A program made the translations under genes and the position numbers. Of a DNA stretch of 64,000 bases, positions 18,136-62,200 are shown in pieces; within the stretch, counting starts at the first letter, position 1, and each line of letters begins with the position of its first letter. The notes below the pieces were generated by a model. The model saw only the letters and a list, made by a program, of their open reading frames with translations, had not been told where the DNA came from and made no database searches. Origin of the DNA: Octopus sinensis (lineage: Eukaryota). Where the stretch lies: contig NC_043021.1 in assembly GCF_006345805.1 (NCBI RefSeq), positions 20,584,001 to 20,648,000 on the forward strand, written 5' to 3'.

Positions 18136-18829
18136 TAATCTTATACTGTCCTCCATTCGCCAACGAAGCCATAAAATAAATTGCTTTAATTAACCAAATA
18201 TAATTGGGGGGAGTCGGTTTAACACGTCGACGCGTCGGATCAGTGATATTGTTTCAATTCCCCCGAGAGAGACTGAATGCTAATCATCCGCCCCAGTTTA
18301 ATTTCTAGATTACGAATATTTAACGTTTTATGAACGCTACAAACAAGTTCGCGAAAGAAAGCTAAACAAGGAGAAAACAAAAAAAAAAAAGAAGAAAAAC
18401 AAACACTTGCTGAGGCAAAGAATTTTGCTGTAGAAGCATCCACGTCACAGAAAGTGACGTCTTCTTCCTTGATATCCTCGCCCTATTTCCAACATGTACA
18501 AGGTATGTATGCGTCTAAAGACGGGCGTAACTCCGGCGGATGTAAAGTGGTTTAATAATGGTATGCTGTCGTCTAGAGGCGCATCCCAACAGCATAGCAT
18601 TGGGAATACCCATGTTTTTCCACGTTCACAAGCATTTTAAGATCTCTTTATCAATCAAGATCTGGTCTTTTCTTTTACATACTTCCATCTGTAATAACTA
18701 TAGAAGTGTGCTCCTTACCATAGACTTTTTTCGTCTGAACTTTCTTCGGGGGTGGGGATGGATAATTCTGAATGAATTTTTCTACAACTACCCTTCGGCT
18801 GGTGTAGCTTACAATTATACAGGAATTTG

Positions 18830-27534: not shown

Positions 27535-30500
27535 CCCTACAATGTTCACGGCTTCATTGGTGGCTAATGAGCCCTGCTCTTGTCAAGCATACACGACTGC
27601 AAACATTGCAAACCAAGCTTTCCCCATTCACTATACAAGCCGTGTGCTTTCGCACAGCTCGCTTAAGTTCTTCATGCTGGATACATGCTCTCCCAAATGT
27701 GTCGATCCCCTCCTTAACTTGCTTCCTCCATCTGTGGTGATGACAGGCATTGTTCTCCTAGTCAGTGTCCTGCATATCACAGTCCTTAAATCGCAGCCTT
27801 GGTTTCTGCCGGAGTCTCCTTCCATTCACGAGTTCTACATAGAGAATCTGCTTAGGAATCCTGTTATCCTTCATTCTAATAAGGTGTCCAGTTCAACGTA
27901 ACTGGTGCTTGTGCACCATTGCCTCAATACTCAAGATATCAGCTGTCCTCAGGACCTGGGTGTCTGGAATTTTTGAGGTCCAGCCAACATTGAGAATGTG
28001 TCTGAGACATCTCTGATGAAAGCGTTCAAGGGCCCTTACCTGATGTTTGTACAGTGTCCATGTCTCACATGAGTAGAGGAGCGATGTCAGTACATACGCA
28101 CGGTACACAGCAACTTCTGTTCGCCTTGCGATGCCATGTTGGGACCAGACACGAGACTGAAGAGACCGGAAGGAATTAGTTGCTCTCTGCAACCTGAAAG
28201 ATATTTTCTCATCCAGGGAGCAAGAACGGCTGAGTGTGCTGCCCAGGTAGACAAACTTGTCTACTACCTTCAGAATTGTTCCTTTAACCAGGATAGCTGG
28301 TTCCATATATGGATTTCCTGATGCAGGCTGGAACATTACAACAGTCTTGTCCAGGCTAATGCCGAATCCAAATGCCTTGCAAGAAGCAGAAATGTAATCC
28401 ATGAGTATTTGCATGTCATCCACTGTATGAGTGACTAAGTCACAGTCATCTGCATAAAGGAGGTCACGAATAATAGACTGGGAAACCTTTGAATTGGCGA
28501 AGATTAAAGAGGCGGACAGAAGATCAGTATCTGACATATATTCCCAGAGAGCTAACCTTAGCAAAAGCATGAGTAGAAGCAGCAGCAAAGCACAAAGAAA
28601 AGAGTGTTGAGGCAAGGATGTTACCCTGCTTGACACCATTCTCTACAGGAATGGGTCCCGCCATGGCACCACCAACATTGACCCAAGCCTCCATCCCATC
28701 ATGAAATGATTTAATTATAGATACAAAGTGATCCAGACATCCAAGTGTGCCAAGTATTTTCCATAGAAAGGCCCTATTTACAGTATCAAAGGCCTTTGTT
28801 AAATCAATGAATACCTGGACAAGATCCATATTCTGCTCATAGCACTTCTGCATCTGTCTTGCTGTGAAAATCATATCCATTGTCCCTCTACCAGATCGGA
28901 AGCCACATTGAGATTCAGATAGGACATCATTTACGAGACACCCATTCAGACGGGTAAGAAGAATATTTGCCAGAACCTTGCCAGCAGCTGATAGTAGAGC
29001 AATACCTCTGTAGTTACCACACATTGTTCTGGCTCCTTTTCCTTTATATAGAAGAAGAATAATTGCATCCTTCCAGTCCTTAGGGATTGCACCATCCCTC
29101 CAGACTGCTCTAATAAGTTCATGAAGGGACTGTGTGATGTAATTACCACCAAATTGCAAGACCTCAGCACAAATTCCATCCTTTCCAGGTGCCCTACCAA
29201 GATTCAATTTACTTATTGATGTCATTACTTCATCTATTGAGGGCGAGGAGTCTAAGGAGCCAATGATAGGTCTTTGTTGCATAGTATCAATTACTCTCAT
29301 CCACAACTGACTCATGGTTTAGGAGTTCAGAGAAGTGTTCGATCCAGCGACCTGTGATTTCTGTTGATTTAGTAAACAGAGTGGAAGACTCCTTGGAAAG
29401 CGAAGGAGCTGATATGGAGCTCTTAGGTCCATAAGCTCGCTTCATAAGATGGTAAAGCTTCTTGCTGTCATTTGCATCAGCAGCAGCCTGAACATCACGA
29501 GCAAGATCCTCCCACCAAGTGTTCTGCATCCTCCTGAGAGATCGCTGCAGTAGTGATATTACACTGTTATAGTGGGCAAGTGCTAGACTTCGCTGCACAG
29601 TAGACAGTTCTCTGTGTAGCAACACACTGTGCAGTCTCTGTGTCTGGCAGTAACATACCCCAGTGTTTCGGCTGCACATTGAACAACCTGGTCTCGAAAA
29701 TCTTCCCATGCTGCAGCAGTTTCAATGCTGGACAAGCGAGTCTGAAGCTCTTTCCTAAACACAACATATACCTTGTGGACATTTAGACGGCGAGGAATGC
29801 TGACTGGTCCACTTCTCTCTTTTGCCCTAATCACCATTCGGAACTTTGCTCGCACCAGACTGTGATCTGTCCAGCATTCTGATCCATGCAAGGACTTGAC
29901 ATTACAAATGTCACGCTTGCAGATGATGACATAATCCAGCAAGTGCCAAACTTTGGACCTTGGATGCATCCATGTTGTTGTGTGATCACCTTTGTGCACA
30001 AAATGAGCGCTTGCAATGTAAAGTTCATGTTCTTCGCAAAGCTCCAGTAGCATGAGACCATTGCTATTCATTTTCCCTACTCCAAAATGTCCTAGAGAGT
30101 TCCATGTATGCCAGTCTGTTCCAACCCTGGCATTAAAATCCCCCAGTAGAATGACTTTATCAGAATTGGGGATTTTTCTAAGTATGGCTCTCAGCTGGGT
30201 ATAAAAGATTGTTTTATCTTCATCACAGCTAGTCAAAGTAGGTGCATAGGCACTTATTAGAGTAGCAAACTGCTTACCTTTCAAGTGCAACCGTAGCGTC
30301 ATTATACATTCATTTATAGGAACAGGGAGCTCTTCCAACTTCTTAAGGATATCAGATCGGACTGCAAAACCAACACCAGCCTCTCTGTGCTCCTCCTCCT
30401 GCCTTCCTTTCCAAAAAAAGGTGTATCCACCTCCTACTTCCTCAAGCTGACCATCACCTTCTATACGAGTCTCTGAGAGTGCAGCTATATCAATTTTATA

Positions 30501-30900
30501 ATGGTTCAGCTCACGAGCAACAAGTGCAGTGCGTCTTTCAGGCCTGCAATCACTCTTGTTGTCTAACAGTGCGCACATTCCAACATGAAATGTTTAAGTT
30601 CCGTCCAGATTTTATACATAAAAGACTCTTTGTTTTTCGAGCGCAGGGTGGACATTCGTCAGTCGCGCTAAACTGACCAGATATGGAAAGACAGGCAATT
30701 TTTGGTTCACCTTTTCTAGAACCTCCCCGGTCTCCGTGATCTCTAGCACAAACCAAAGATCCCCAAAATGTCCAATGCCATTCCTTGCATATCTGGTTTT
30801 GTATCAGAGTGACCTTCTCCTAGAGACATGCTTTAACAAACACTGAGGGGTGCCTCACTGCCAGTGGTCTTTCGGCATGCCGGACACCATCCCGGAATTT
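27535..30900 (-). mobile_element. Near full-length RTE-clade LINE (APE-RT-C2H2), frameshifted
   Basis: WNVRT, ERRTALVAREL..YKIDIAALSETR, YAPT, LGDFNARVG and WMHPRSK (APE). NYRGIALLS, ESQCGFRSGRGT.DMIF, FIDLTKAFDTV, GVKQG, LLYADD, F.YLGS, LLYSCETW and FHQRCLR (RT). Terminal CNVCSRVC...GLISH zinc finger. Confidence 0.95.
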
Positions 30901-31659
30901 CTGCGTACCCGTGCTAACATTTATTGGATGGCCGTTGACTCTCAAGAGGTCCTCTGCCCTTTGACGGGTTTTATTTTCATCCTGCAGGGTGTCCAATAAA
31001 CACCCTCCTCACCAAGCAAGCTTGGTGGGGTTGCCGGTTTAGTCGCCGACGACCCGACCATGCAACAGGTTGTACTGGGTTACATGTTACCAGTAGCACC
31101 CGAAAGTGACCTGACATACACACACACACATACATACATACATACGCACACACACACACACACACATACAGTTCTTTAATAAGAATAGTATTGACAATTA
31201 CTTCGAAATTTCAGCTTACTAAGCCATCCCCGTATAGCCCAATGCCGGTTGAGTAGGTGGAACTTCGAAGTCACTGTCAGTACTATTTTTGTTAAAGAAT
31301 AATAGATTTGTGCTCTACAAAAATTAAGTAATCTTTCGGTGTAATGTAATTGTTTTTATTATAACTTAGCATAAAAAACAAACCCTAATGTGTGTGTATA
31401 TACACACACACACATACTCGTTCACTTGACCGGCGGAAATCTTTTCAAAGTTGAAAAAACTTATTAATTACTCATCACCGGGTATGTGGCACCGGCTTGT
31501 TGATTTCATCATTCGCATCTTGTAAATTTCTACAAAATCAAAAAATAAAATTCTTTTAATTCATATCAGAGAGTTCTATTCCTTTCAATTCTCTTTCCAT
31601 TCCCACCCACTTCCTTGAAAAAACAGCCAGAAACTTTACTGTGTCTGCAACTTGCCCGG

Positions 31660-31865
31660 TTCAAATTTCATACGCGTAATTCTTGCGGACGACTACCGGC
31701 AGCCACGTTGACAAAATTCCCATTGGTCCTTTCTGGTCACGTGCTGGCGAACGGTGCGTTTCGATTGGTGCGTTTCTCTCCGTTCACAATATCAAGAGCC
31801 GAAGCCATTGAGAAAGGCCGAACGTTTCCTTTATAAGTGGGTGAGTATAAAAGCAACGTGGCATT
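31660..31865 (+). promoter_or_regulatory. Probable promoter of the calumenin-like gene
   Basis: Repeat-free CpG-rich patch with GCCACGT at 31702 (+) and about 31857-31863 (-), inverted CCAAT boxes (ATTGG at about 31723 and 31766), and CACGTG at 31738. Followed by consensus donors GTGAGT at 31841 and 32045. Confidence 0.55.
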
Positions 31866-40450: not shown

Positions 40451-40519
40451 AGTGTTCACATATCTGATATGTTCTTTTTGTCTTTTCTCTATTTTCAGAT
40501 GTTGTCTAGTCAGGAAATA

Positions 40520-40612
40520 ATGAAGTACTATTCATTTTTTTTGACAATTTTTCTCTTTGCTACTACATTATGTTCCACTATTCCTAAACCAAAAGACAGA
40601 TCCATTGACAAG
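40520..40612 (+). CDS. CALU: Calumenin-like CREC protein, coding exon 1 (signal peptide)
   Basis: Acceptor TTTTCAG at 40498. Encodes MKYYSFFLTIFLFATTLCSTIPKPKDRSIDK, donor GTAAGT, phase 0. An in-frame upstream ATG at 40499 would add MLSSQEI. Confidence 0.85.
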
Positions 40613-44487: not shown

Positions 44488-44618
44488 AAATTGAGTGATT
44501 TAGATCATGAGACCAATGGCATTCACAATCCCGATTACGACCATGAAGCAATCTTGGGAAAAGACGATGCCAAAGATTTTGACCAACTTTCACCAGAACA
44601 AAGCAAAGAGAAATTAGG
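44488..44618 (+). CDS. CALU: Calumenin-like, coding exon 2
   Basis: CAG/GTAAG boundaries. Encodes [43 protein letters not shown](G), the CREC YDHEA.LG...FDQL.PE.SKE.LG signature. Phase 0 to 2. Confidence 0.95.
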
Positions 44619-46041: not shown

Positions 46042-46238
46042 AAAAATTGTTGACAAAATGGATAAAGATCACGATGGTTATGTTACCGAAGAGGAACTGA
46101 AAAATTGGATTAAATACGTCCAGGATAAATACATCATCAATGATTCAAATGAACGCTGGAAAGATTATGAATTTCTGGACACTGATAAACTGGACTGGGA
46201 AACATTTAAAAAGAAAACCTATGGATTCACAGAAGAAG
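46042..46238 (+). CDS. CALU: Calumenin-like, coding exon 3 (EF1 and degenerate EF2)
   Basis: TAG/GT boundaries. Encodes KIVDKMDKDHDGYVTEEELKNWIKYVQ...LDWETFKKKTYGFTEE. Phase 2 to 1. Confidence 0.95.
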
Positions 46239-46897: not shown

Positions 46898-47064
46898 ATA
46901 TTAAACCAACCGATGAGAAAGCTGTCTACAAAGAAATGATCACTCGTGATAAGAGGCGGTGGGCCTACGCTGACTTGGATAAAGACAACCACTTAACTAA
47001 AACTGAATTCATGCATTTCCTCCATCCAGAAGAAGCTGACCACATGAGAGACATTGTTGTTTTG
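46898..47064 (+). CDS. CALU: Calumenin-like, coding exon 4 (EF3)
   Basis: CAG/GTAAGA boundaries. Encodes ...YKEMITRDKRRWAYADLDKDNHLTKTEFMHFLHPEEADHMRDIVVL. Phase 1 to 0. Confidence 0.95.
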
Positions 47065-49197
47065 GTAAGACACTTTGATAGTATGGCAAGTGTGGTTTAG
47101 GGTGTGTCGGCGAGCTGGCACAAACGTTAGCATGCTGGGTGAAATGCTTAGCGGTATTTCGTCTGCGTTACGTTGTGAGTTCAAAATCCGCCGAGGTCGA
47201 CTTTGCCTTTCATCCTTTCGGGGTCGATAAATTAAGCACCAGTTATGCACTGGGGTCGATGTAATCGACTTAATACCTATGTCTGTCCTTGTTTGTCCCC
47301 TCTGTGTTTAGCCCCTTGTGGGTAGTAAAGAAATAGGTTTAGGGTGTGTCTATCTGGGAGAGGTTGGTCACAAGAGAAATATTGTTTTAGTTATATGCCA
47401 GCTGTAGAAACTCTGCCAGATTCAGACTGGAGCCTGGTGCAGCCCCTGGCTTCCCAGACCCCGGTCGAACCGTCCAACCCATGCTTGCGCGGAAAACGGA
47501 CGTTAAACGATGATGATGATATAAATTCCACCATGGATCTATAGAGTATTGACTTCTCACTGGAAAACATACCTACACCAAGAGGTCTTTGTTTTTTGTG
47601 ATTTTGTAATTGGCTGATGATGTGCTGTGATCATTGGATTGTTGATAAGTCCTGAATGCCCATGGGATTTTGCACCTAGAAAGTTCCCCTCCAAGGCACA
47701 AATCTGGGCAACGGTGTTTGTGGAAGACCAGCGGTGGCCCATGCATACCAGCCTCCCCTCTCCATGCCACCAATGTTATTCAGGAGAAAGGCAAAGGCCA
47801 ATACAGCTGGCCGCCAGCTGAGTGAACTGGAGCAGCATGAAATAAAGTGACTTGCTCAAGAACACAACACACAACCCGGTCAAGGATTTGAACTCATAAC
47901 CTCATGACTGTGAGCCCGATGCTCTAACCACTGAGCAATGCACCTCCACTTTAATATACTTGGAAGTATATTATGGTTGCTAAAGGAAATATGGTGTTCC
48001 TACCAGCAATTAATATAATTATATATATATATATTGTGAAGGTACGTGGTTCAGTGGTTAGGGTGTTGCAGTCACAATCACAAGGTCATGGTTTCAATTC
48101 CCAGGTCAGTAGTGCATTGTGCTGCTTGAGCAAAACACTTCATTTTGCGTTGCTCCAGTCCCCTCAGCTGTAAATGGGTAACACTGCAATGAACTGACCT
48201 TCTGTTCAGGTGGAATGTTGGCCTTAACCAGCAGAGTATCTTCTGAAAACTACAACAATGCAAGGAAGTGCATTGTGACTAGCAGTGTATAACAACATCC
48301 AATTGCCTGGTTGATACAGTAATATATATATATATTGCTAACCGTCACCGAAAGGTTAGGATATCGTCTTTCTAACTATGTGGTTGCGAGTTCGATCCTG
48401 TTGTGCAACACCTTAGGTAAGTGTCTTCTGAGTTGATCAGTATCTTGTGACTGGAATTTGGTGATGGGAAATTGTTCTGAAGCCTGTTATATATTTGCTT
48501 GATTATGTTTGTGGTGTAGTTACCAGTGTATCTTATACTGTCAAATAGATTGCTTGTTTATTCACATTATTTGACTTCATCATCCTCGTTTAATGTCTGC
48601 TTCCCATGCTGGCATGGGTTGGACAGTTTGACTGAGGACTGGCGAACCAGATGGCTGTACCAGGCTCCAATCTTGATCTGGCAGAGTTTCCACAGCTGGA
48701 TGCCCTTCTTAATGCCAACCACTCCGAGAGTATAGTGGGTGCTTTTATGTGCCACCAGCACGAGGGCCAGTCAGGCGTTATTGGCAACGGCCACGCTCAA
48801 ATGGTGTTTTTTTACATGTCACCTGCACAGGAGCCAGTCCAGCAGCACTGGCAACGACCTCGCTCAAATGTTTTTTCACGTGCCAGTAAGGTGACGCTGA
48901 GCTTAATCATGCATTTTCATGTAGCTTCAAGTTTTCGATTCTGTGATTGTTAATTTTTAGAATGTCGTGATTTTTAAGATGACAAATGTGATAAGTTGGA
49001 CCTGGTCATGCATGGCTGGTTTAACCCTTTAGCATTTAGATTATTCTGTCAAATGTAATGCTTATTTGTGCACATTGTTTTGAATTAATCATGCATCATC
49101 TCATAGCTTCATGATCTCAGTGATACACGTGTTTTTAGAATGACATTGTAGGGAGATGTGATATGTTAGTATTTAATAATCTTTTACTAAATTCCAG

Positions 49198-49258
49198 GAA
49201 ACTCTCGAAGACATAGACAAAGATAAAGATGGAAAAGTCAGTCTTGAAGAATACATAA
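49198..49258 (+). CDS. CALU: Calumenin-like, coding exon 5 (EF4)
   Basis: CAG/GTAAGT boundaries. Encodes ETLEDIDKDKDGKVSLEEYI. Phase 0 to 1. Confidence 0.95.
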
Positions 49259-49353
49259 GTAAGTTTTTTATTATTGAATTATTATTGAATTTTAAAATGA
49301 TTAATATACATGGTTGGTCAAAAGTCACCCAACAGTAAATCAAAATTTCATAA

Positions 49354-49741
49354 ATAGGCGTAGGAGTGGCTGTGTGGTAAGTAGCTTGCTTACCAACCAC
49401 ATAGTTCTGGGTTCAGTCCCACTGCATGGCACCTTGGGCAAGTGTCTTCTACTATAGCCTCGGGCCGACCAATGCCTTGTGAGTGGATTTGATAGACGGA
49501 AACTGAAAGAAGCCCGTTGTATATATGTATGTGTTTGTGTGTCTGTGTTTGTCCTCCCATTCAACATCGCTTGACAACCGATGCTGGTGTGTTTACGTCC
49601 CCGTAACTTAGTGGTTCGGCAAAAGAGACCGATAGAATAAGTACTAGGCTTACAAAGAATAAGTCTTGGGATCGATTTGCTCGACTAAAGGCGGTGCTCC
49701 AGCATGGCCGCAGTCAAATGACTGAAACAAGTAAAAGAGTA
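49354..49741 (+). mobile_element. SINE family A, full length (intron 5)
   Basis: ATAGGCGTAGGAGTGG head to GTAAAAGAGT tail. Confidence 0.9.
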
Positions 49742-49749
49742 AATATTCA

Positions 49750-50654
49750 ACATTTAATGAAACTGTCACTGGCGGTAACTGTTTCGAAATGCTGAACGAA
49801 TATGTCTTTCCGCAGCTGTGTGACAGGCCAGAATTTAATACTTTGCTGTTTGTGCAAGGTGGTGTGCGTCCCCATTATGCCAAAAAGGTACCTGATCTGT
49901 TGGACACTTTGCCTGCAGGTTGGATTGGACATAGAGGGCCTATTGAACGGGATCCACATTCGTGTAACCTCACACCAATGGACTTTAGTATTTGGGGAAT
50001 GATGAAAGATCAAGTTTTTAATAGAAAACCAAGGACTCTAGCTGAGTTGCAAGTTGCCATAGCAACTGAATTTGAACTAATTGATGCAAAATAAGGTACT
50101 TTGTCATACTATACTCTTTACTCTTTTACTTGTTTCAGTCATTTGACTGCGGCCATGCTGGAGCACCGCCTTTAATCGAGCAACTCGACCCCGGGACTTA
50201 TTCTTTTGTAAGCCCAGTACTTATTCTATCGGTCTCTTTTGCCGAACCGCTAATTAACAGAGACAGCAATGCTAGGGGGTCAAACACACACACACGCATA
50301 TATACTACAGGCTTCTTTCAGTTTCCGTCTACCAAATCCACTCACAAGGCTTTGGTCGGCCTGAGGCTATAGTAGAAGACACTTGCCCAAGGTGCCACAC
50401 AGTGGGACCGAACCTGGAACCATGTGGTTGGTAAGCAAGCTACTTACCACATAGCCACTCTTGCGCCTATCTGTAATTCTGTTTTGACTCGAATGGAAAA
50501 ATGTGTCGCTCAAGAAGGACTTCAGTTTGAACAATTTTCATGATGTTTCATATTTAGACGCTTTTATTAAATTCATTCAGTTGTCAAACACAAATAAATC
50601 TAGGAATTAAATGGTTTTGATTTACTGTCCAGGTGACTTTTGGCCAACCCTATA
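49750..50654 (+). mobile_element. Tc1/mariner-superfamily transposon relic (3' half), split by a SINE
   Basis: FVQGGVRPH...WIGHRGP...SCNLTPMDFSIWG.MKDQVF..KPRTLAEL (degenerate QDGAPPH/SPDLTPLDF). Resumes after the SINE as CNSVLTRMEKCVAQEGLQFEQF*. Ends TTTTGGCCAACCCTA-TA. Confidence 0.85.
50115..50470 (-). mobile_element. SINE family A inserted into the Tc1/mariner relic
   Basis: Reverse-complement copy, inverted relative to 49354-49741. Confidence 0.9.
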
Positions 50655-52121
50655 TGTAAAGAAATCTTTTATTGTTGAATAAGCTTATTGTAAAGTTCTG
50701 TTGTAGCTGCTAACGGCCACTCAAGCCAATTCTGTACTCTTATCATTGTATTGAGTAATCTAATTTCTAATATCTGATCATAACTTTGGTCCACTCCTAC
50801 CACTGTAGAAAATAATATAGTTTCCAGGAATTATTTTGGTCTAAACTGCTGTAATTATATCTTTAATCCATGCTGTACTTCTTTGCTCGTGTATACAGCT
50901 GAGTAGCAGTGATAAAATTCGAGCCTACATGGCTTTGACACCTTTGTGACTTGAAAACAAAGATTTCATGAAGGTTGTAGTTTTGCCGAAACAACCTTGA
51001 GTGCTACCTTCCCAATTATTGACTCTTTGAGCATTGTGCTTTAGAGAAAGATGAATTATTGGTCAATAACCCAAGCTGTTTTTTTTTTTATAAATTGCTT
51101 GTACTTCTTAAAGACAACAGGTTATAGAAAACTGCATGAACTTTGCTGTTGCGTTAAGTCATGCATTTGCAAGGCCCAAGATGTTATGAAATTTAATATT
51201 GTAACAATTGTTAAAAAACAGGGAACAGTTTTTACATTCTGAGTTCAAATTCTGCCAAAGGCAACTTTGACTCTCATCCTTTTGAGGTCAATAAAATTAA
51301 CACCTGGGGGTCAATGTAATTTTACGAAATTGCTGGCCTTGTGCCAAAATTTGAAATCAATATTGTAACAATAGTTTCGCATTTATTGGAGCCTAAGATG
51401 TGAAATTTAATAGTGTGATGGTAGTTTTACGTCTGTGAGGACCCAAGATGTTATGAAATGTTAACAAAAAGACTCTTTCGTTTGTTTTCTTTTTAAACAA
51501 ATTATTCCTTCAGCTAATTCATTTGTTTTGTACATATTTTGAACAGTTTGAGACAAACAAATATTTAATGCTGTATTTACAACGTTCTGTATAGTTTATA
51601 AAATTCCACTTTGTCACTTGTGCATGCAATTCCAGTAGGTTTTCTAACTCACTAAACTTACCAATATTCCAACAGACAAAACTGAATATTCTGGAATTTG
51701 TTTTTCTTTTCGAAATGTCTTGCCAAGGTTTGGTCACGCTTAGCAAGTTAAGTGATAGTTACTACCATTTGTATTGAAGGCACATGGCCCAGTGGTTAGA
51801 TCAGTGGGATCGCAGGTTCGAATCTGAGACCAGGCGACGTGTGTGTTTATGAGCGAAACACCTAAGCTCCCCGTGGCTCCGGCAGAAGGTAATGGCGACG
51901 AACTTCCGCTGACTCTTTCGCCACAAGTCTCATTCTTTCCTCCTGCATCTTGCAGCTCACCTGTCATGCACCGGCGCCCTGTCCAGGTGGGGAACCTATA
52001 CGCCAAGGAAACTGGGGAACTGGCCCTTATGAGCCAGGCGTAGCTTGAGAAGGAACAAACAATATTTACAGGAATGTGAGAGCAAAATGTCAAATGTATT
52101 GCTGTGTTCAACAGCTAAACA

Positions 52122-52279
52122 CAGGCGCAGGAGTGGCTGCGTGGTAAGTAGCTTGCTAACCAACCACATGGTTCTGGGTTCAGTCCCACTGCATGGCACC
52201 TTGGGCAAGTGTCTTCTACTTTAGCCTCAGGTTGACCAATTGTGAGTGGATTTGGTAGACGGAAACTGAAAGAAGCCTG

Positions 52280-52318
<39 letters not shown>

Positions 52319-52519
52319 TGTGTGTCTGTGTTTGTTCCTCTAGCATTGCTTGACAACCGATGCTGGTGTGTTTACATCCCCGTCACTTAGCAGTTCGGCA
52401 AAAGAGACCGATAGAATAAGTACTGGGCTTACAAAGAATAAGTCCCAGGGTCGATTTGCTCGACTAAAGGCGGTGCTCCAGCATGGCCGCAGTCAAATGA
52501 CTGAAACAAGTAAAAGAGA
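52122..52519 (+). mobile_element. SINE family A, full length (intron 5)
   Basis: Head to tail with an internal (TA)n. Confidence 0.9.
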
Positions 52520-54336
52520 GTACTATGGTCAGCAGTAACTAAAGGCAATACTATGGTCAGTAGTAACTAAAGCATAGTGTTGCATTGAATAGTAAGAGCA
52601 CTCTGCAGTGTTGCTAACCATGTCTACAAATGGCATCATTAGAGAGAGAGAGAACGAGGCTACGTTAGCAAGCTGGCAGAATCGTTAGTGTGCCAAACAA
52701 AATACTTAGCGCCAGTCCTTCCAGCTTTGTTCTGAGTTCAAATCCTGCCGAGGTCAACTTTGCCTTTCATTCTTTCGGGGCTGATAAAATAAGTACTGTT
52801 TGAGCACCGGGGTCTCTGTAATTTATTAACCCCTCCCTCGAAAATTGCTGGCCCTGTGCCAGAATTAGAAAGAACTCTGGAGTGGGGCCTGGGCACTTAA
52901 CAGGCAGAATTGTTAGAACATCAGACAAAATACCTTGTGCTGTTTGTCTTGGTCCTTTACATTCTGAGGTTGATTTTTCCCTTCCATCTTTTTAGGGTTA
53001 ATGTAATACTATATTATATTATACTGACTGACCCCCTGTTCCCTTAAATTTGCTGGTGTTGTGCCTAAATTAGAAAAAATTATTACAGAGACACTAAGGC
53101 AGAAAGCTGGCAGAATCGTTAGCACATTGGGCAAAATGCTTAGTGGCATTTCATTGGTTTTTACGTTCTGAGTTCAAATTCTGTTGAGGTTGACTCTGGC
53201 TTTCATTCTTTTGGGGTTCGGTAAAATGAGTACCAGTTGAGTACTGAGGTCAATGTAGTTGATTTGACTCTTCTGCTGGTCTGGTGCCAAAATTTGAAGC
53301 CAATATTACACAGAGACCCTAAACTTATTGTTGGCAGTTGTTCCTCTTCATGATTGATGTTGGCTGTGATCTAAAATTATGACATGAAGTTCAGCCGACA
53401 GAAGCCTGTGAGAGAACCTTTTATGTGGCCTCTATGCCTGCTAGAAATAGCAGCTGAATGGCTAATGTGTACAGTTTCCTTCTTACCATGTTAATTAGTT
53501 AAGGCAGCTATGTTAGTGTCTTGCATATGCAAGTAGGTTTCTATCTAAAGAAGGTCAACCTTTATCTAACTGTTGCAGATCCTTACTGCAAGTTTGGACC
53601 CTGATTTTGAATGACCTTAAATGGATTGGCTAAATTGTTAAGTACGTCAGAAAAAGAAGCTTTGCAGTATTTGTTCCAGCTCTTTATATTCTGAGTTCAA
53701 ATCCTGTCTAAGTCAACTTTGCCTTTCATCCTTTCGGCTAAAATATATATAGCAGTCTGGAACTGGAGTCAAAGTTACTGGTTTTCTGCTTAAGTTAGAA
53801 ACAAAATATTTGGCACATAAGTTCAAATAATAGGAATGGTTTCATTGGTCTTTACTGAGTTGTTATGATTTTTTATTATTATTATTGTGTTATTACTTTG
53901 CTTGGGAGACTGGCAAGAGTTGGCATTTGGCCACATAAGATCTGCCTCAGTAAACTCTGTCTGACTCATACAAGTGTGGCAAAGTGGATGTTGAGACAGT
54001 GATGATGTGTTCTCGTCTACTTGATGTCTGTGACGTAATTTAACAACTAACACCTGACCCTTGTAGGCATTTGGATCAAGTCTCTTTCCTGAGGAGCACT
54101 TGGTATCTTGATGCAGCAATCTACAAATTGTGGGTTCTTCCTCTTGCTTTCAAAGGCTCCTTAAAAGTCCCTGCTGATTGAGGCCTCTCCTACTCTAACC
54201 TATGCCATATAAAAAGATAAATACATCACCTTCGTTTAATTATGTTCCTCCCTTCTACTAATGTAACAGTGACAAAGTTGTTTGGTGAAATTGTAATAAT
54301 TCTACTGTTAATTGGAATGTTAACTTACGTTCATAG

Positions 54337-54548
54337 CTGATATATACGGAAATGAAGATGAAGATGATGAGGATGAAGATGACCCAGATTGGGTCAACGA
54401 GGAAAAGGAGCAGTTCCACAATTTCCGTGATAAAAACAAAGACGGCTTCTTGGACAAAGCCGAGGTGACAGAATGGTTGATTCCCGAGGAGTTTAATCAC
54501 CTTGATACTGAAGTATCTCACCTTGTGAGGACGTCTGATGTGGATCAG
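54337..54548 (+). CDS. CALU: Calumenin-like, alternative coding exon 6a (acidic linker, EF5, start of EF6)
   Basis: TAG/GTGTGT boundaries, 212 nt, phase 1 to 0, no stops. Encodes (T)DIYGNEDEDDEDEDDPDWVNEEKEQFHNFRDKNKDGFLDKAEVTEWLIPEEFNHLDTEVSHLVRTSDVDQ. Missed by the ORF track. Confidence 0.85.
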
Positions 54549-55111
54549 GTGTGTAATAGAGCATTGCCGGTGCAATGCATGAGAAACTGCTCAACAAACT
54601 TATAGAATTTTAACACTTCGAGCCTATTTCATGTAGAAAGTAAAGCAGTGTAGCAGAAAGCTGATGACGGTTCATCTCTTGTGATTTCTTCCAGTTCCCC
54701 CAAAAAAGACAGATCTGGAATCAATCATTTCATACCTTTCCTCTTGTGGCACTTATCTACCAGACATTTTACTGCTGACTTTTTTTTGATAAAATAGACA
54801 GAACCTCAAGAATATAACACGTGGCCATTGAAAGGATTGTGCAAAGAGAACTAATTATTTTTTTATTTATGTCAACATTAGCTTCTCGTACAAGGTTGCT
54901 AAATTTACTATTGTCTTCTCAATCTATTTGTAAAATTAACTGAATTTTGTATAAAAATTTGAAAATTTTCTTCTCTGAAATATATATATATATTTATATA
55001 TACATTTCTTTTAAAAAAAATTGAAGTATTGTGTATTCAATGAGTTTGTTGAGCAGATATTTTGACTTGATTTTTTGACGTATGTTTTGATGACGGCTTT
55101 GCCATTTGTAG

Positions 55112-55314
55112 GTGACATGTGGCCCGGGGATAAGGAGGGAGAGCCAGAACCCGATTGGGTTAAAGGTGAGCGCGAGCAGTTCTCCAACTATAGAGACAAA
55201 AATGGTGATCATATGATGGACAAAGCGGAAGTGAGGGAATGGCTTCTTCCCTCTGATTACGATCATTCAATTGCCGAAGCAAGCCATTTAATTTATGAGT
55301 CAGATAAGAACAAG
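55112..55314 (+). CDS. CALU: Calumenin-like, alternative coding exon 6b (canonical-type EF5, start of EF6)
   Basis: TAG/GTTTGT boundaries, 203 nt, phase 1 to 0. Encodes (S)[67 protein letters not shown]. Confidence 0.92.
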
Positions 55315-57306
55315 GTTTGTAACAGTGAACACTACTGCTTGTCCTTGCCCTTGTTTTAAGGTTTTGTGGTTGCACTTAACTGAAAGCAGGCTGTTTATTG
55401 TTGTTTTAATGTGTTTTCTAATTCTGTTTTCTCTCTCTTCACTCTAACTCTGTAACAATCTTTCTCACTCTCCTCTCCGTCTTTGAGCCACTCTGCTATG
55501 TTATTTCATGGAATTCATAAAAATTAATCGCTCTCTATTCCCATAACAAAGGCAGCAAGCTGACAAAATATTTAGCATGTCAGGTAAAACACTTCAAGGC
55601 ATTTCTTGTGGCTCTGTGCTCTGAGTTCAAATGCTACCAAGGTCAACTTCACCTTTCATCTCGCAGGGGTCGGTAACCAGCCTTATGAATCCCGAGTTCA
55701 AAAACTAAAAAAAAAAAAAAAAATTTGGCCCTTTAGCATTCAGATTACTCTGTCAAATGTAATGCTTATTGATTCACATGGTTTTGAATTAAACATGTAA
55801 TATCTCATAGCTTTGAGATTTCAATGATGCAATTTGTTTATTTTAGAATGTAGGGCTGGTGTGAGAGATCAGATCTGTCCAGTTTGAACATAAAACCGGT
55901 TGAATATTTTTTTGGCCCGATATGGCTGGTTTAAATGCTGAAGAGTTAAACTGCTTTTGGCAGTATAAGGGCCAATAGTATTTAGGGGGGTTTTTTTCCT
56001 CTGTAAGAAAAATGAATTACCTTTGAAAAATCTCTAATATTTAAAACCTTTTTTTCATATTCTATTTCATGAAATTCCATTAACAGAAAAACTCCTTTAG
56101 ATTTATTTTCTTCTGATATTGTCTCTCCTTGCATTTTCTTTATGGTGTTGGTCTCCTTGGTGAGCTTTGTTTGTTACCCTATATATTGTGTGTGTGTGTG
56201 TGTGTGTATGATAATTGAGCACATGGCCTGATGGTTTAGGGTGTCACATTCATAACCACAAGGTTGTGGTTTCAATTCTTCAACTGGGTAATGTGTTGTG
56301 TTCTTGAGCAAAACAGTTAATTTCATGTTACTCTGCAATCACTTCAACATTTGATGTGTGGGAAACCACGGCCCCTGTACAGGTAATGTTCATTTGGAAA
56401 AAAAGGGAGTGAGGGTTAAAATTGCATATATTATGAAACTTCTCATGTTGAACTTGTGCATGCTAATGGATTATATATTTACTCCTCACTAGACACACAC
56501 ACATTGGCGTTTACTGATGTGACACCTGAATTTTTCTACACCAGAAGAATTTCAATCTTATTTAAGGCTACAATTCAAGAGGGTATTTAGCTTTAAGGAC
56601 TGGACTTGCTCCATCTTTCTACTCTTCTGGGACCTTAACTCTTTTGGTTCCAAACTGTCAAAGACTGCCCTTCATTTAATGTTACAGACTCTAGGTTTTA
56701 AAGGGATCTAAATTTCCTTTTAAATTTTATGTTATATTATGTTCCAAAGATAATTATTTTTAATATTATTTTAAAAATTGACAGACAAACTGTATATTAA
56801 CTGAAATATGATAAAAGGGTTGGGCCTCACTGGCTGAGGTGTTGGGGTTTGCTGTGCTTGAAAAGACACGTCAAACTAGATAGAATTATGATCATCCATA
56901 CATACAAGCATGCCCTTTGCAGATGCCATGTGAAATGCACTACATGTTGGTGCTGCGTAAACACACTTGTGCTGGTGGCAGGTAAAAAGCACCCAACACA
57001 TTCTGTGAATTGGTTAGCATTAGGAAGGACATCCAACTGCAGAAACCATGCCAAAACAGCTGGAGTCTGGACAGCTGCCCAACTCGTGTCAAACTCTCCA
57101 ACCCATGCCAGCATGGGAAATGGATATTAAATGATGATGATGATGATCTATATGGCTGTTCAGTTTCCAAAGTGTTAAACAGATCATGCCTCTTTTATTC
57201 AGGGGAGTAGAAACTTAAAGAAATTCATTGTTATGTAATGTATAGTTACCATTTTCAGCTCAGCTTGTCCAAAGATTAAATTTCTGTTTTTTCTTTCTCT
57301 TTACAG

Positions 57307-57411
57307 GACGGTAAATTATCCAAAAATGAGATCCTGGACAAATACGATCTCTTTGTTGGCAGCCAAGCTACGGATTTTGGTGAAGCTTTGAAGTCTCATG
57401 ATGAGTTTTAA
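57307..57411 (+). CDS. CALU: Calumenin-like, last coding exon (end of EF6, HDEF ER-retrieval signal)
   Basis: Acceptor TTACAG. Encodes [34 protein letters not shown]; HDEF is the calumenin C-terminus. The spliced protein is 318 aa with 6b or 321 aa with 6a, counted from ATG 40520. Confidence 0.95.
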
Positions 57412-58542
57412 GCAGAATCTCTCAATTAGAATCATGTGTGAGAAGAAAGAGGAGGAGGAGGAGAAGAGAAAAATCAAATCAAAAAAAGAGAGAACCTCTA
57501 AGTCATCAATATTTGTATTTTTTTTTTTTTTTGACTTTCCTCTCTGATAACATGAAGATGCTGACATATACTGGACTTAAGCTATGGTCACAAGACTTCT
57601 ATTGATGGCAATTGAATGGGTTTTTTTTGTTGTTTTTAAGGAACTGGTGCTGTACCTTATCTCATCTGGTTTTCACATTTACAATTGTAATTGCACATCA
57701 AATTATTATTACTGAGAACAACAGAGTTGGTAGAGTAGCAAATAATAATAATAATAATAATCATTAATAATTATTATTATTTTGAATATTGTATAGTGGT
57801 GTATTGGCAGAATCATTGGTATGTCAGACAGAATGCTTAGTGGTGTTTCTTCCGGTCTTAATGTCCCGAGTTCAAATTCCACCAAGGTTGACTTTGCCTT
57901 TCTTCCTTCTGGGGGTCGATAAAATTAAAATACCGGTCAAGCACTGAAGTTGATGTAATTGACGGCCCCTTTCCCCCAAAAAAATTTCAGGCCTTGTGCC
58001 TATTGTAGAAAACATTATTTTGAACATTGTGCCAATATTAGAATACATTATTATTATTATTTTAATTATATTGGTGTGAACGGCAGAATTGATTGAATGT
58101 AGAAAACAAAGTGCTTTGTGGCGTTCAGTTACGTTCCTTTACATTCTGAGTTCAAACTCAGCCGAGGTCAACTTTACTTCTCATCCTCAAGGTATTAACA
58201 AAATTAATACCAGCCTAGTAACTGGGGTCAATATAACCAACTGTTGTACTTGCCCCCTAAAATACATGGCTTTGTGTCTAAGTTACCAAGTTATTTCCTT
58301 CTGCCAACTCCTGTCCTACAGTATAAGTCTGTGATCATGTGAACTAGCTAAGCTCTGATCCTTAGGGTTTTTTTTTTTTACGTATTTCAATTTTCTTGCT
58401 TTTACTTTATGGAGTATCCATCAGTCATGCTTCATTGTAAATTAGCTGGGAAAACTGATAATTTTAGATTTAGTTTTGAAGCTATCTTGCATTTTTATTC
58501 TCTCAGCTTAATCTAGTTTATATATATATATATATATATTAA

Positions 58543-59293
58543 ATATATATAGGTGTGTGTGTATACAGGTGCAGACGGTATATGAGGACATATTTATGGT
58601 TTTAGAAAAAAAAAGCTTATATAATAACAGAAAAAACTGTATTTTTTTTTAAATAACATAAACAAAGCTAAATTATCAATTTAATAATTTCATTCAATAA
58701 ACCCACCATAAGCTTCAATAACTATCTCTACATGGGGTCGAAATTATTTACAAGCTTTGATTTACATGTCCTCAAATACCAACTGCACCCTATATATACA
58801 CACGTGTGTATATGTATGTATATGCATATATATGTGTATACATGTGTATATATATATATATACACACATGTGTATATGTACATATATGTGTATGCATGTA
58901 TATATATATATATATATTCAATATATATAGGTGTGTGTGTATACAGGTGCAGACGGTATATGAGGACATATTTATGGTTTTAGAAAAAAAAAGCTTATAT
59001 AATAACAGAAAAAACTGTATTTTTTTTTAAATAACATAAACAAAGCTAAATTATCAATTTAATAATTTCATTCAATAAACCCACCATAAGCTTCAATAAC
59101 TATCTCTACATGGGGTCGAAATTATTTACAAGCTTTGATTTACATGTCCTCAAATACCAACTGCACCCTATATATACACACGTGTGTATATGTATGTATA
59201 TGCATATATATGTGTATACATGTGTATATATATATACACACATGTGTATATGTACATATATGTGTATGCATGTATATATATATATATATATAT
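58543..59293 (+). repeat. 378-nt tandem duplication downstream of the stop codon
   Basis: Near-identical blocks start at about 58543 and 58921. Each contains AATAAA (58696 and 59074). Confidence 0.9.
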
Positions 59294-62200
59294 TGAATAT
59301 ATGTTTTTATTTTTGAGTTATTAGGTTATCTCCAAAATATTTTAATTTTTCCTATATATCTAGAAAAGAAACAAAGATTTATTTGTGGATAACCGGTTCT
59401 TTTATTATTACTTGCTATTTATTATTTCTATACTATATAGTATAAAAGCAAAAATTGGTAAAGGTTTTTAGACCTCAGATTGAAGTAGCTTTTGCTATAT
59501 ATATATTTTTTTTTTTATTTCCTTTTGTATTTTCATTTTTCCCATTTCTCAAATTCAAAAAAAAAAAAAAAATTTTTTTTTTTCCTTCTTTTAATCCTGT
59601 AGTATTTGCATGAACAAAAAAAAACAAAAAAGTATGTCAGACATTATTCTCCTATGCAGCCATTTATCATTTGTGTGTGTCTTGTGGACATATATATCTA
59701 TACTAGAAATATCTTTTGGCTCTACTTGAAAATCTGCAAGCTTCATGACTGATTCAGCGTTGAGGAAAAAAAAATTTAAGTATTACAAGGGTTTTGGGAG
59801 AGGGGGAAGAAATTTTTGTCAAAAAGCTTTTTTTTATGCATCCTTCGCTATCATCACCCACCACCACCACCACAAGCATTTAATGTTCTTAAATTGTGTG
59901 TTCTTGTTTCGTGCCAAGTCAGTGAGCCCAAGTTTGATCAAAGGCCTTGACCATTCAGTCTGTTTTTTTTTTTTTTTTTCTTGTCCCTCCCTTAGTTTAG
60001 GACTGCATTATTTGATACGTCCTCTATTTAAAAATGATAGGGTGGTGTGGATTTGGCTGCAGTTTCTTGCATGTCAAGCAAATTTACGTACTGATTCCAC
60101 TCATCTTCTTGTGTCAGTGTTTTGTGTTTCAACGGGTCCTAAAATCACAGCTGTTTTATCTGCCTCATCTCAACAGCTTAATTGAGGGCAGAATTGTTAA
60201 CGACGTCTAATTGTTAATTACTCGTCTTCTTTCTGTGTTTATTATTAACACTAATTACCCACCGACATTAACCATTCATCACACTACTTACCCTCCATTT
60301 TGACTTTTATTTTCTGTTTATATATATATGTATAATGTGTATATATATATGTGTATGTATATATGTATGTGTGCGTGTGTGTGTGCATGTATGTATATGC
60401 ATGCATGCATGTGTATGTATGTGTGTGTATGTACGTGTGTATGTGTGCGTCAGTGCGTGTGTATGCGTGCGTATGCATGCATGCATATGTATGTGTGTAT
60501 CTGTGTGTATGTATGTATATGTATATATACATGTATATATATTATATATATTATATATATATAAAAGTAATATTAGGCTTTTTCTTACATAACAAAAAAT
60601 AAAATCTTTAAAAATTTATTTAAAAAAAAAAGAATTTATTTTATTTTACAACTTTTTTTTTTTCAAAGTTACTTTCCTGTTTAAGGTTGAAAATAAAGTA
60701 GATTTTTTTAATTAAAAAAAAACAAAACAAATTTGTCATATATTGTAGTTTTTGTTATTTTTTCTTGTTTAACTCCAGACCAGACACAATTGAGTAAATC
60801 CAGAAGCAGGCTTTCGACCATGATCATCATCTCTCTTTATTTCAAGAATTGTGTGCACATGCACCTAGAAATAGCAGCTAAATTGCAAATGCTCAAAGCT
60901 TGCTATATTTTAGCCCTTTTGCATTCAGTTTACTCTATCAAATGTAATATTTATTTATTCACGTTATTTTGAATTAATCTTGCATTATTTTAGCATTGGT
61001 GTGATCATTTATTTTTAAAATGACATTGTAGGGTAGGTGTGAGAGGCTGGATCTGGCCAGTTTGAGGACAAAACAGAATATTCGGGCCTAACGTAACTGG
61101 TTTAAATGCAAAAGGGTTTTAAACAAAGTCGACATCCTGAATAATGTAAATCTTAGATAAATTGTCTGGGGAAACAAAACCGTGGGATGATCATGGTTGG
61201 AATGTCTTGATCAATCATTGGTGGGGCATGCATAGGGTTATGCTGAACTTTTATACCTTTTGTACACAATGTTTAATATACCAATAGAGAAAAGGAACAA
61301 TTTGAGAATTGAGTTATTAAAAAAAAAAAATCCTTTACATTACCTTCTGTGGACAATTTTATCCAGTTTTGACACTTTAGAGACACCAAATCAGTTCATG
61401 TTCATTTCATTTTATTCATAAGATCTGATGTCACTAAAGTGGAGATAGTTTATTTTCTTCGATTTAGTAGTATGTAGGTATGTTCTGAGTTCAAATTCCA
61501 CCGAGGTCGACTTTGCCTTTCATTCTTTCAGGGTCAATTAAATAAGTACCAGTTACGCACTGGTGTTAATATAATCGACTTATTCCCTTTGTCCTTGTTT
61601 GTCCCTTCTGTGTTTAGCCCCTTGTGGGTAGTAAAGAAATAGGTATTTCGTCTGGTGATACGTTCTGAGTTCAAATTCCGCCGAGGTCGACTTTGCCTTT
61701 CATCCTTTCAGGATCGATTAGATAAGTACCAGTTATGCACTGGTGTTAATATAATCGACTTATTCCCTTTGTCCTTGTTTGTCCCTTCTATGTTTAGCCC
61801 CTTGTGGGTAGTAAAGAAATAGGTATGTATGTAATTACAAACGTGTGTGTGTGTGTGTATATTTAGTATAGAACTGGTCAGTACTGAAAGCAATGCCATC
61901 TTAATTCCTTATGGAGAAATAAACTGGAGACAGACCTATGTGTGCATCATTATCATCATCATCATTGTTCGACCGTGGTCAAGACAATGGAATTTACCAT
62001 GCTACGCCAGACTTCACGGGCCATCATGGCATTATGGAGGTCCTGTTGTTGGATGCCTGGAGATTACATCAGGGTAGGAGAGTGTGCGCCCTCTGGTTTT
62101 GCGAGTAGATGGCTTCCAGAGGAGAAGAGTAGAAATTACCTCGTTTTCAGCGTTACAACAAATGTCCAGCAAACTGGACTCTCCTACCTATGTGTGCAGG

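What the first reader, a model, noticed from the sequence alone, without database searches (positions are those of the whole stretch)
54337..55314. Tandemly duplicated, mutually exclusive exons swap EF-hand 5/6 of a cephalopod calumenin
Seen: two intact paralogous exons, 6a (212 nt) and 6b (203 nt), each with AG/GT ends and phase 1 to 0. They align residue for residue (PDWV..E.EQF.N.RDKN.D...DKAEV.EWL.P....H...E.SHL...SD). Either alone gives a full protein ending HDEF. They are strongly diverged yet both stop-free and keep EF-hand residues, which argues for selection on both. Established: vertebrate CALU has mutually exclusive exons, but for the N-terminal EF-hand region. Inference: this C-terminal pair is an independently evolved switch, and I know of no description of it.
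Basis: partly seen in the sequence, partly recalled or inferred. Interest (0 to 1): 0.9.

Follow-up and report, generated by a model that had tools for sequence, protein, structure and literature searches.

The report
Ancient mollusc calumenin exon switch
An octopus gene for calumenin, a calcium-binding protein of the endoplasmic reticulum, has two tandem versions of one exon and makes an mRNA with each; the same pair occurs in snails, clams and a chiton, where one version always carries an extra acidic loop that likely changes how the protein handles calcium.

Summary
Exons 6a and 6b are intact paralogs, and each encodes EF-hand 5 plus the entry into EF-hand 6. Both are used. The 6b junctions appear in 4 of 4 runs laid. 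A processed retrocopy on another contig carries exact 5|6a|7 junctions. Public annotation already lists both isoforms in two octopus species.

The pair is not cephalopod-specific. Both forms occur in 15 other mollusc species (chiton, gastropods, bivalves) and in a gene model of the annelid Ridgeia; Owenia has an exon pair of uncertain orthology. Exon trees split 'a' from 'b' across classes, although AU tests do not reject a cephalopod-only origin.

The conserved difference is an acidic linker before EF5 in 'a' (9-19 D/E against 5-8). Joining both exons shifts the frame into a predicted NMD target. A candidate 17-bp intronic stem would bring the 6a donor close to the 6b branch point.

The event is separate from the vertebrate CALU EF1 pair. 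Eight literature searches found no description. The scan had not noted it on other DNA, only a similar EF5 pair in an arthropod paralog. Function is untested.

The parts
40499..40612 (+). coding exon 1 (ATG, hydrophobic N-terminal helix, likely signal peptide)
   Evidence: 38/38 match to P0008; donor
44488..44618 (+). coding exon 2
46042..46238 (+). coding exon 3 (EF1, degenerate EF2)
   Evidence: EF2 read by eye
46898..47064 (+). coding exon 4 (EF3)
49198..49258 (+). coding exon 5 (EF4), ends phase 1; common upstream exon
   Evidence: joint 49258>55112 in 4 of 4 runs; 5|6a junction in retrocopy
54337..54548 (+). exon 6a, acidic version: linker + EF5 + entry to EF6
54354..54383 (+). ten-residue D/E run in the EF4-EF5 linker of 6a, the conserved mark of the a-type exon
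   Evidence: coil with lower pLDDT in the model
54429..54464 (+). EF5 loop of 6a, canonical (D1, N3, D5, G6, E12)
54549..54554 (+). 6a donor GTGTGT; a second GT four bases downstream would join 6a to 6b in frame (397 aa) but matches the donor consensus at only 4 of 9
54587..54608 (+). 5' arm of candidate intronic stem, 38 nt after the 6a donor
55035..55056 (+). 3' arm of candidate intronic stem, ending 55 nt before the 6b acceptor, just upstream of branch-point-like TTGAC motifs
55112..55314 (+). exon 6b, ancestral-like version: short linker + EF5 + entry to EF6
55195..55230 (+). EF5 loop of 6b; His replaces the usual Gly at loop position 6
   Evidence: Gly in 24 of 26 b-type rows and 23 of 23 a-type rows
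57307..57411 (+). coding exon 7: rest of EF6, HDEF, stop; the 3' UTR runs at least to 58654

Best explanation
Exons 6a and 6b are a tandem exon duplication of octopus calumenin, each spliced into its own mRNA, likely inherited from the common ancestor of molluscs and possibly of molluscs and annelids, and 6a likely changes the protein's calcium handling through an added acidic loop. SHOWN: both mRNAs exist; either exon gives a full HDEF-ending protein; a-type exons across molluscs carry a longer, more acidic EF4-EF5 linker and keep a canonical EF5 loop; b resembles the single exon of arthropods and deuterostomes. INFERRED, origin (about 0.9 for pan-molluscan, 0.65 for shared with annelids): one duplication, with b keeping the old role and a diverging. 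INFERRED, exclusivity: the exons have phases 1 and 0, so joining both shifts the frame and puts a stop 98 nt before the last junction, a predicted NMD target (about 0.8 that this removes double inclusion). In octopus a 17-bp stem would also loop out 426 nt and leave about 50-60 unpaired nt between the 6a donor and the 6b branch point, too few for splicing between them (about 0.35). INFERRED, function (about 0.45): the a form adds about ten negative charges on a flexible loop beside the EF5/EF6 pair, which would add weak calcium sites and shift the calcium level at which calumenin folds and binds partners in the ER lumen.
For: Use of 6b: joints 49258>55112 and 55314>57307 (GT..AG) in 4 of 4 runs from 4 studies. 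Use of 6a: an intronless, 5'-truncated copy at G000:C7 aligns at 1499/1630 (92%) to exon 5+6a+7+3'UTR with both junctions exact. In run X13, contig 12 is 270 nt (30+212+28) and leaves the genome at both ends of 6a with 0 mismatches, the same geometry as the 261-nt 6b contig (inferred from lengths and offsets). Both isoforms are annotated in O. vulgaris and O. bimaculoides. Both forms were seen in 15 non-cephalopod mollusc species and in the Ridgeia model. Pairs differ only in exon 6 in Physella, Patella, Pecten, Saccostrea, Sinanodonta and Liolophura. The order is a then b in 7 of 7 both-exon models. Tree without the linker: 23 a rows plus one Owenia exon against 37 others, 91/81. Tree with part of the linker: 16 a against the rest, 99/99. 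Profiles trained without each class sort 41 of 42 mollusc exons; octopus 6a scores +17.1 bits and 6b -30.9. Linker D/E count is 9-19 in 23 a rows and 5-8 in 38 others; median net charge is -21 against -10. Stem: -29.1 kcal/mol, reached by 0 of 100 shuffles; pair probability is near 1; the Watson-Crick run is 14 against at most 11 in 22 same-gene segments. Human calumenin folds on binding calcium at 20-200 uM, and calsequestrin binds calcium on an acidic surface (PMC4798761, passages).
Against: AU tests do not reject a cephalopod-only clade (p 0.149; p 0.29). The alignments are only 53-67 columns, the 91/81 branch is unstarred with an unsettled bootstrap, and octopus 6a and Ridgeia are long branches. 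The Owenia alternative exon is not acidic and changes side between the two trees. No a-type exon was found for non-octopod cephalopods, nemerteans or Lingula among the proteins fetched. The 6a joints are not among the 15 of 1036 joint rows printed, and the runs are RNA only by the tool's guess. Two RefSeq models (Biomphalaria X3, C. angulata X3) include both exons in frame. By energy, 5 of 27 control segments of the gene match or beat the stem, 1 of 36 other window segments has a longer helix, and its conservation could not be tested. No calcium-binding or tissue data exist here.
Confidence: 0.7

Rival explanations
1. The octopus pair arose on its own in cephalopods. The acidic linker and a-type residues of other molluscs are convergent.
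For: AU tests do not reject one clade of cephalopod a and b exons (p 0.149; p 0.29). Octopus 6a is on a long branch. Low-complexity acidic runs can arise repeatedly. Calumenin-family exons have duplicated more than once.
Against: Octopus 6a scores as a-type on profiles built without cephalopods and without the linker (+17.1 bits; Argonauta +8.3), and 41 of 42 mollusc exons sort correctly. The order is the same as in 7 of 7 both-exon models. The best trees are 8.5 and 7.8 log units better with a and b apart.
Confidence: 0.07
2. The exons are not strictly exclusive. A shifted donor lets both be included in frame, giving a longer calumenin with an extra EF-hand as a real third product.
For: A GT four bases into the intron gives an open 397-aa protein ending HDEF. 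Seven public models hold both exons, two of them RefSeq isoforms. The Biomphalaria and Ridgeia models have the same Val-Cys joint that octopus would have.
Against: The shifted donor matches the consensus at 4 of 9, against 7 of 9 for the normal one. A GT at +5 is part of ordinary donors, so gene finders can use it to keep a frame. No 6a>6b joint is among the rows printed (15 of 1036, so a weak test).
Confidence: 0.1
3. Exclusivity rests only on splice-site competition plus frame shift and NMD; the intronic stem is a chance hairpin.
For: Double inclusion gives a stop 98 nt upstream of the last junction. NMD is a listed route to exclusivity (PMC6071210, passages). 5 of 27 control segments have duplexes as stable. 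Whole-region folding is unremarkable (z -1.32).
Against: The stem is the longest non-repetitive Watson-Crick helix among 23 segments of this gene. Its arms are not genome repeats (28 hits against 21 for the control pattern). It sits next to the two signals that must be kept apart.
Confidence: 0.45
4. The isoforms differ mainly in partner binding or trafficking (for example SERCA, ryanodine receptor or secreted cargo), set by surface residues of EF5/EF6 and the acidic loop, not in calcium capacity.
For: Conserved a/b differences also lie outside the linker, for example the aromatic-Glu pair before the EF6 loop in b, replaced by Arg-Ser-like residues in a, and Leu/Met in the EF5 loop. Human calumenin is described as a sensor that regulates SERCA2a and RyR rather than as a buffer (PMC4798761, passages).
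Against: The linker keeps its charge and not its sequence or length (13-28 residues), which suits ion binding better than a specific interface.
Confidence: 0.35

Closest known systems
Vertebrate CALU mutually exclusive homologous exons (PMC4494069, passages)
   Same: Same protein family; tandem homologous exons used one at a time; each swaps EF-hand sequence.
   Different: That pair encodes the first EF-hand, dates to jawed vertebrates and has equal lengths (195 nt). This pair encodes EF5 and the entry to EF6, has unequal lengths and adds an acidic linker. Vertebrate proteins fetched here have one b-like exon 6.
RefSeq/UniProt calumenin isoform sets of molluscs (for example O. vulgaris X1/X3, Magallana gigas X1/X2, Pecten X1/X2, Liolophura X1/X2)
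   Same: These are the same two products, already predicted by annotation pipelines.
   Different: They are unlabelled database entries. No paper found treats them as one conserved event or notes the acidic linker.
Tandem exon duplication-derived substitutions (PMC8373072, passages)
   Same: Old, conserved homologous exon swaps; several human events date to Bilateria.
   Different: That catalogue starts from human genes, so a lophotrochozoan-only event falls outside it. CALU does not occur in its main text; its supplements were not read.
Dscam exon 17 splicing by steric hindrance combined with RNA structure (title only, seen in the reference list of PMC6071210; the paper itself is not held)
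   Same: By its title, and as I recall it, an RNA structure works together with steric hindrance in a two-exon cluster, as proposed here for the stem.
   Different: Here the stem is a prediction in one genome, with no conservation or mutation data.
EF5 exon pair in an arthropod reticulocalbin-2-like gene (earlier scan note e1-7709335, unchecked)
   Same: CREC-family gene with duplicated EF-hand-5 exons, by that note.
   Different: A different paralog and phylum. The octopus paralog on C8 showed one EF5-EF6 stretch in the 9.9 kb examined.

Membership tests
CREC family, calumenin | multiple (six) EF-hands | tested here: met
   Pfam EF-hand families pass their cut-offs for both isoforms. Five canonical loops and a degenerate EF2, read by eye against the alignment.
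CREC family, calumenin | C-terminal HDEF retention signal | tested here: met
   both isoforms; feature as given in PMC4798761
CREC family, calumenin | N-terminal signal peptide | tested here: inconclusive
   hydrophobic helix at residues 4-25 in the model; no signal predictor was run
CREC family, calumenin | sequence kinship with named calumenins | tested here: met
   the named hits among the best 120 of 1167 are called calumenin or reticulocalbin-3, or are hypothetical; one-to-one orthology with CALU against RCN1/RCN3 was not tested
CREC family, calumenin | low-affinity calcium binding in the secretory pathway | not testable with these tools
   needs protein
Mutually exclusive homologous exons | adjacent homologous exons with the same phases at both ends | tested here: met
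Mutually exclusive homologous exons | each exon found alone between the same flanking exons in mRNA | tested here: met
   6b; 6a: retrocopy, X13 contig 12, annotated isoforms
Mutually exclusive homologous exons | both-included and both-skipped mRNAs rare or absent | tested here: inconclusive
   none among 15 of 1036 printed joints; both-exon models exist in six other species
Vertebrate CALU EF1 exon pair | duplicated exon encodes EF-hand 1 | tested here: not met
   this pair is EF5/EF6
Exclusivity by a too-short intervening intron | donor and branch point too close in the linear sequence | tested here: not met
   intron is 563 nt; nearest upstream AG is 57 nt before the 6b acceptor, so there is no sign of a distant branch point
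Exclusivity by U2/U12 incompatibility | one exon flanked by minor-spliceosome sites | tested here: not met
   all donors are ordinary GT types; the U12 consensus was recalled, not scored
Exclusivity by NMD | double inclusion gives a stop more than about 50 nt before the last junction | tested here: met
   98 nt in silico; the threshold is recalled and decay itself was not tested
Docker-selector competing RNA pairing | one element pairs with alternative partners flanking each exon | tested here: not met
   the best alternative partners of the two arms are -14.3 and -18.8 kcal/mol, against about -30 for the stem; other elements were not screened by conservation

The most novel reading that the evidence does not exclude
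A splice switch older than the split of molluscs and annelids toggles calumenin between the ancestral calcium sensor and a form with a calsequestrin-like acidic loop, tuning ER calcium stores by tissue or stage. In octopus an intronic stem enforces it by pulling the 6a donor against the 6b branch point. It would be one of up to four separate exon duplications in the CREC family (vertebrate EF1, hemichordate EF2 region, lophotrochozoan EF5/6, arthropod RCN2-like EF5).
Probability: 0.2. Interest if true: 0.68.

Novelty: new member of a known kind. Interest (0 to 1): 0.42.

Why it matters
Mutually exclusive homologous exons that last for hundreds of millions of years usually do something. This one gives a clean two-protein comparison for what the C-terminal EF-hand pair and an acidic loop do in calumenin; the PDB search found no close solved relative (best hit E 9.6e-9, a calmodulin-type fusion chain). 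It also matters for mollusc transcriptomics and proteomics, where 'calumenin X1/X2' hits are reported without noting that they may be two conserved forms (for example PMC7525975). It is not a new kind of system, and the products are already in databases.

Tried and rejected
6a as a dead exon: rejected by the retrocopy junctions, X13 contig 12 and conservation. 6a reads coming from the retrocopy: rejected for X13, whose contig has 0 mismatches over 54389-54545, where the retrocopy differs at 6 sites. A second calumenin gene or a 6b retrocopy: none among 28 candidates scored or 6 candidates; a more distant paralog lies on C8. Short-intron and U12 mechanisms: not met. Competing partners for the stem arms: none strong.

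Isoform ratio: contig depths are 16 (6a) and 33 (6b) in X13, but the tool states that contig depth cannot rank parts of a gene, so no ratio is claimed; tissues are not on record. No RNA holder was listed on record; that is no evidence either way. The metagenome scan returned 80 of 328 relatives, mostly spliced cDNA. By a motif scan one was a-type (L004), none had two copies and 13 had no motif hit, so it gave no introns of molluscs.

The search of cluster representatives gave single-exon reading frames without names. The oyster proteome paper names X1 and X2, but its supplements could not be read and its GI numbers could not be mapped to a or b, so it is only a lead. The AlphaFold model (mean pLDDT 75) only places the linker in a coil; the 6b form was not folded.

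Rows left out of the trees: the truncated C. angulata a exon, a gapped Armadillidium row and near-duplicate or unnamed rows; one search used 40 chosen rows.

Full report
Observation. 6a is 54337-54548 (212 nt) and 6b is 55112-55314 (203 nt). Both have AG/GT ends, phase 1 in and phase 0 out, and no stops. The other coding exons are 40499-40612, 44488-44618, 46042-46238, 46898-47064, 49198-49258 and 57307-57411. With 6a the product is 328 aa, identical to RefSeq XP_036369108.1, named calumenin of Octopus sinensis. With 6b it is 325 aa, two residues from O. vulgaris isoform X3. Both end HDEF. The cores share 28 of 53 residues and 90 of 159 bases. Each exon encodes the EF4-EF5 linker, EF5 and the entry to EF6.

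Both exons are used. Four coded runs from four studies (of 24 listed; RNA by the tool's guess) were laid on 49100-58400. The joints 49258>55112 and 55314>57307, both GT..AG, appear in 4 of 4. The 6a joints are not among the 15 of 1036 rows printed; the tool skipped a repeat inside 6a. However, contig 12 of X13 is 270 nt long and aligns to 54389-54545 at its positions 83-239 without a mismatch. That is the geometry of 30 nt of exon 5, all of 6a and 28 nt of exon 7, just as the 261-nt contigs fit 6b (inference from offsets). Independent evidence comes from the genome. A third hit on contig C7 is an intronless copy that starts inside exon 5, crosses the 5|6a and 6a|7 junctions exactly and runs through about 1.2 kb of 3' UTR at 92% identity. 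It has a frameshift and has lost the stop, and no poly(A) tail was seen. An inherited processed copy implies that the 6a mRNA was present in the germ line (established reasoning). Public annotation lists 6a in O. vulgaris, O. sinensis, O. bimaculoides and Argonauta, and 6b in O. vulgaris and O. bimaculoides. 6a is as conserved as the constitutive exons: 69/70 and 61/70.

It is not a cephalopod novelty. A full-length search gave 1167 relatives, of which the best 120 were listed, and cluster look-ups added isoforms. Both forms occur in 15 other mollusc species: the chiton Liolophura; the gastropods Physella, Patella vulgata, three Haliotis, Gigantopelta, Biomphalaria and Elysia marginata; and the bivalves Pecten, Saccostrea cucullata, Magallana gigas, C. 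angulata, Sinanodonta and Solemya. Where the pairs were aligned they differ only in exon 6. Seven models from six species, among them the annelid Ridgeia, contain both exons, always a before b. Owenia has two versions of the exon, neither with an acidic run. Lineus, Tubulanus, Lingula, arthropods and deuterostomes showed only a b-like exon among the proteins fetched, as did two unnamed proteins that group with octopus 6b; this is not a genome-level test of absence. A tree of the 53-column core without the linker puts 23 a rows and one Owenia exon against 37 others at 91/81, unstarred. With part of the linker, 16 a rows separate at 99/99 and the Owenia exon falls with the rest. Profiles trained without each mollusc class, on the core only, sort 41 of 42 mollusc exons; the miss is Solemya a at -1.5. 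Octopus 6a scores +17.1 bits, Ridgeia's first exon +31.3, Owenia's alternative +12.8, and all 11 outgroup rows score as b. Against this, AU tests do not reject a cephalopod-only clade (p 0.149 and 0.29), and the alignments are short with long branches. I put one pan-molluscan origin at about 0.9 and sharing with annelids at about 0.65.

What differs between the forms. The a linker has 9-19 acidic residues (median 15, n = 23) against 5-8 (median 6, n = 38), with no overlap; the a label was assigned partly on this feature, which is why the tree and profile tests leave it out. Median exon net charge is -21 against -10. The EF5 loop is canonical in 23 of 23 a rows; octopus 6b is one of 2 of 26 b rows lacking Gly6. 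Other steady differences are Leu against mostly Met in the EF5 loop, Glu against Pro after the conserved Trp-Ile-Ile-Pro, and loss in a of the aromatic-Glu pair before the EF6 loop. In the predicted structure the linker is a coil between helices 219-227 and 241-254 with pLDDT near 58-73. Human calumenin is a low-affinity sensor that folds on binding calcium and regulates SERCA2a and RyR, whereas calsequestrin binds many ions on an acidic surface (PMC4798761, passages and start of abstract). I infer that the acidic loop adds weak calcium sites and shifts the folding or partner-binding set point (about 0.45). A change of partners is the main rival. Neither is tested.

How exclusivity likely works. 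Joining both exons at the normal sites gives a stop 98 nt before the last junction. Skipping both truncates the protein at 225 aa without HDEF. So only single inclusion gives a retained protein, and NMD is a listed route to exclusivity (PMC6071210, passages). The 563-nt intron is too long for plain steric exclusion, and the sites are ordinary GT-AG. Inside it lies an inverted repeat, 54587-54608 with 55035-55056, predicted to pair with probability near 1 at -29.1 kcal/mol. 0 of 100 shuffles reach that energy, but 5 of 27 natural control segments of the gene do. Its 14-bp Watson-Crick run is longer than any in 22 same-gene segments and than 35 of 36 other window segments, and the arm is no repeat. 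It starts 38 nt after the 6a donor and ends 55 nt before the 6b acceptor, so it would leave roughly 50-60 unpaired nt to the branch-point-like motifs. This is a candidate only (about 0.35), as no other species' intron could be read. A weak GT four bases downstream would allow an in-frame 397-aa product, and two RefSeq models in other molluscs have both exons, so strict exclusivity is not shown.

Comparison with what is known. The vertebrate CALU pair encodes EF1 and arose in jawed vertebrates (PMC4494069, passages), so it is a separate event. Ancient tandem exon swaps are a known class (PMC8373072, passages; supplements not read). Eight full-text searches returned no paper that, from its listing or the passages read, describes this pair; a recent calumenin review has no occurrence of 'mollusc' (PMC12516920, passages). 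The library lacks most subscription journals. An oyster proteome study reports calumenin-like X1 and X2 changing at metamorphosis (PMC7525975, passages and section 8); its unread supplements may bear on whether these are the a and b forms. PMC9803972, PMC11802352 and PMC7016017 (passages) added nothing specific. The scan's earlier notes hold no look-alike of this sequence, but one unchecked note describes an EF5 pair in an arthropod reticulocalbin-2-like gene.

Verdict. The exon pair is real and both exons are expressed. It is old, already in databases and apparently undescribed: a new member of a known kind. Its interest lies in its depth across Mollusca and in the conserved acidic loop, not in cephalopod novelty. 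Interest 0.42.

Noticed in passing
L003:1429-3013 (G000:C7, about 97050198-97051782): 5'-truncated processed pseudogene of the 6a mRNA, starting in a (TA)n tract, with a frameshift in exon 7 and no visible poly(A) tail; 7 changes in 6a (4 silent, 3 not).
   Followed up: yes
P0081 / P0159 (Saccoglossus X2 / X1): The two isoforms differ only at alignment columns 109-144, the EF2 region: apparently another, separate alternative exon pair in a hemichordate calumenin.
   Followed up: no
window 55094-55111: The intron just before 6b reads Ala-Leu-Pro-Phe-Val-Gly in frame both here and in an unnamed single-exon reading frame P0004 whose exon is only 81% identical, which hints at a conserved acceptor element.
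   Followed up: partly
window 54549-54554: The 6a donor lacks the usual A at +4. Read-through begins Val-Cys or Val-Gly in 17 of 23 a-like frames against 30 of 98 b-like ones; the rows are not independent and some a-like calls are weak.
   Followed up: partly
window 55210-55212: Octopus 6b has His at EF5 loop position 6 where 24 of 26 b-type rows have Gly, which may weaken that site.
   Followed up: no
L085:4841-5134 (G000:C8, minus strand): A second CREC-like gene, 45% identical over EF5-EF6, without the intron at the exon 6/7 boundary; one copy in the 9.9 kb read.
   Followed up: partly
window 58519-59302: A 378-bp tandem duplication (97% match) in or just after the 3' UTR; the retrocopy ends within its first unit.
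   Followed up: no
window 27896-30593 and 5552-6229, minus strand: Broken open frames that look like LINE endonuclease and reverse-transcriptase pieces upstream of the first coding exon (family not checked).
   Followed up: no
window 11286-11387, 18509-18589, 31197-31843: Stretches matching N-terminal extensions of longer octopus calumenin models, likely 5' UTR or alternative first exons; some have stops here.
   Followed up: no
P0074/P0141 versus P0143 (Owenia): Owenia models show two exon-6 versions and also two different N-termini.
   Followed up: partly
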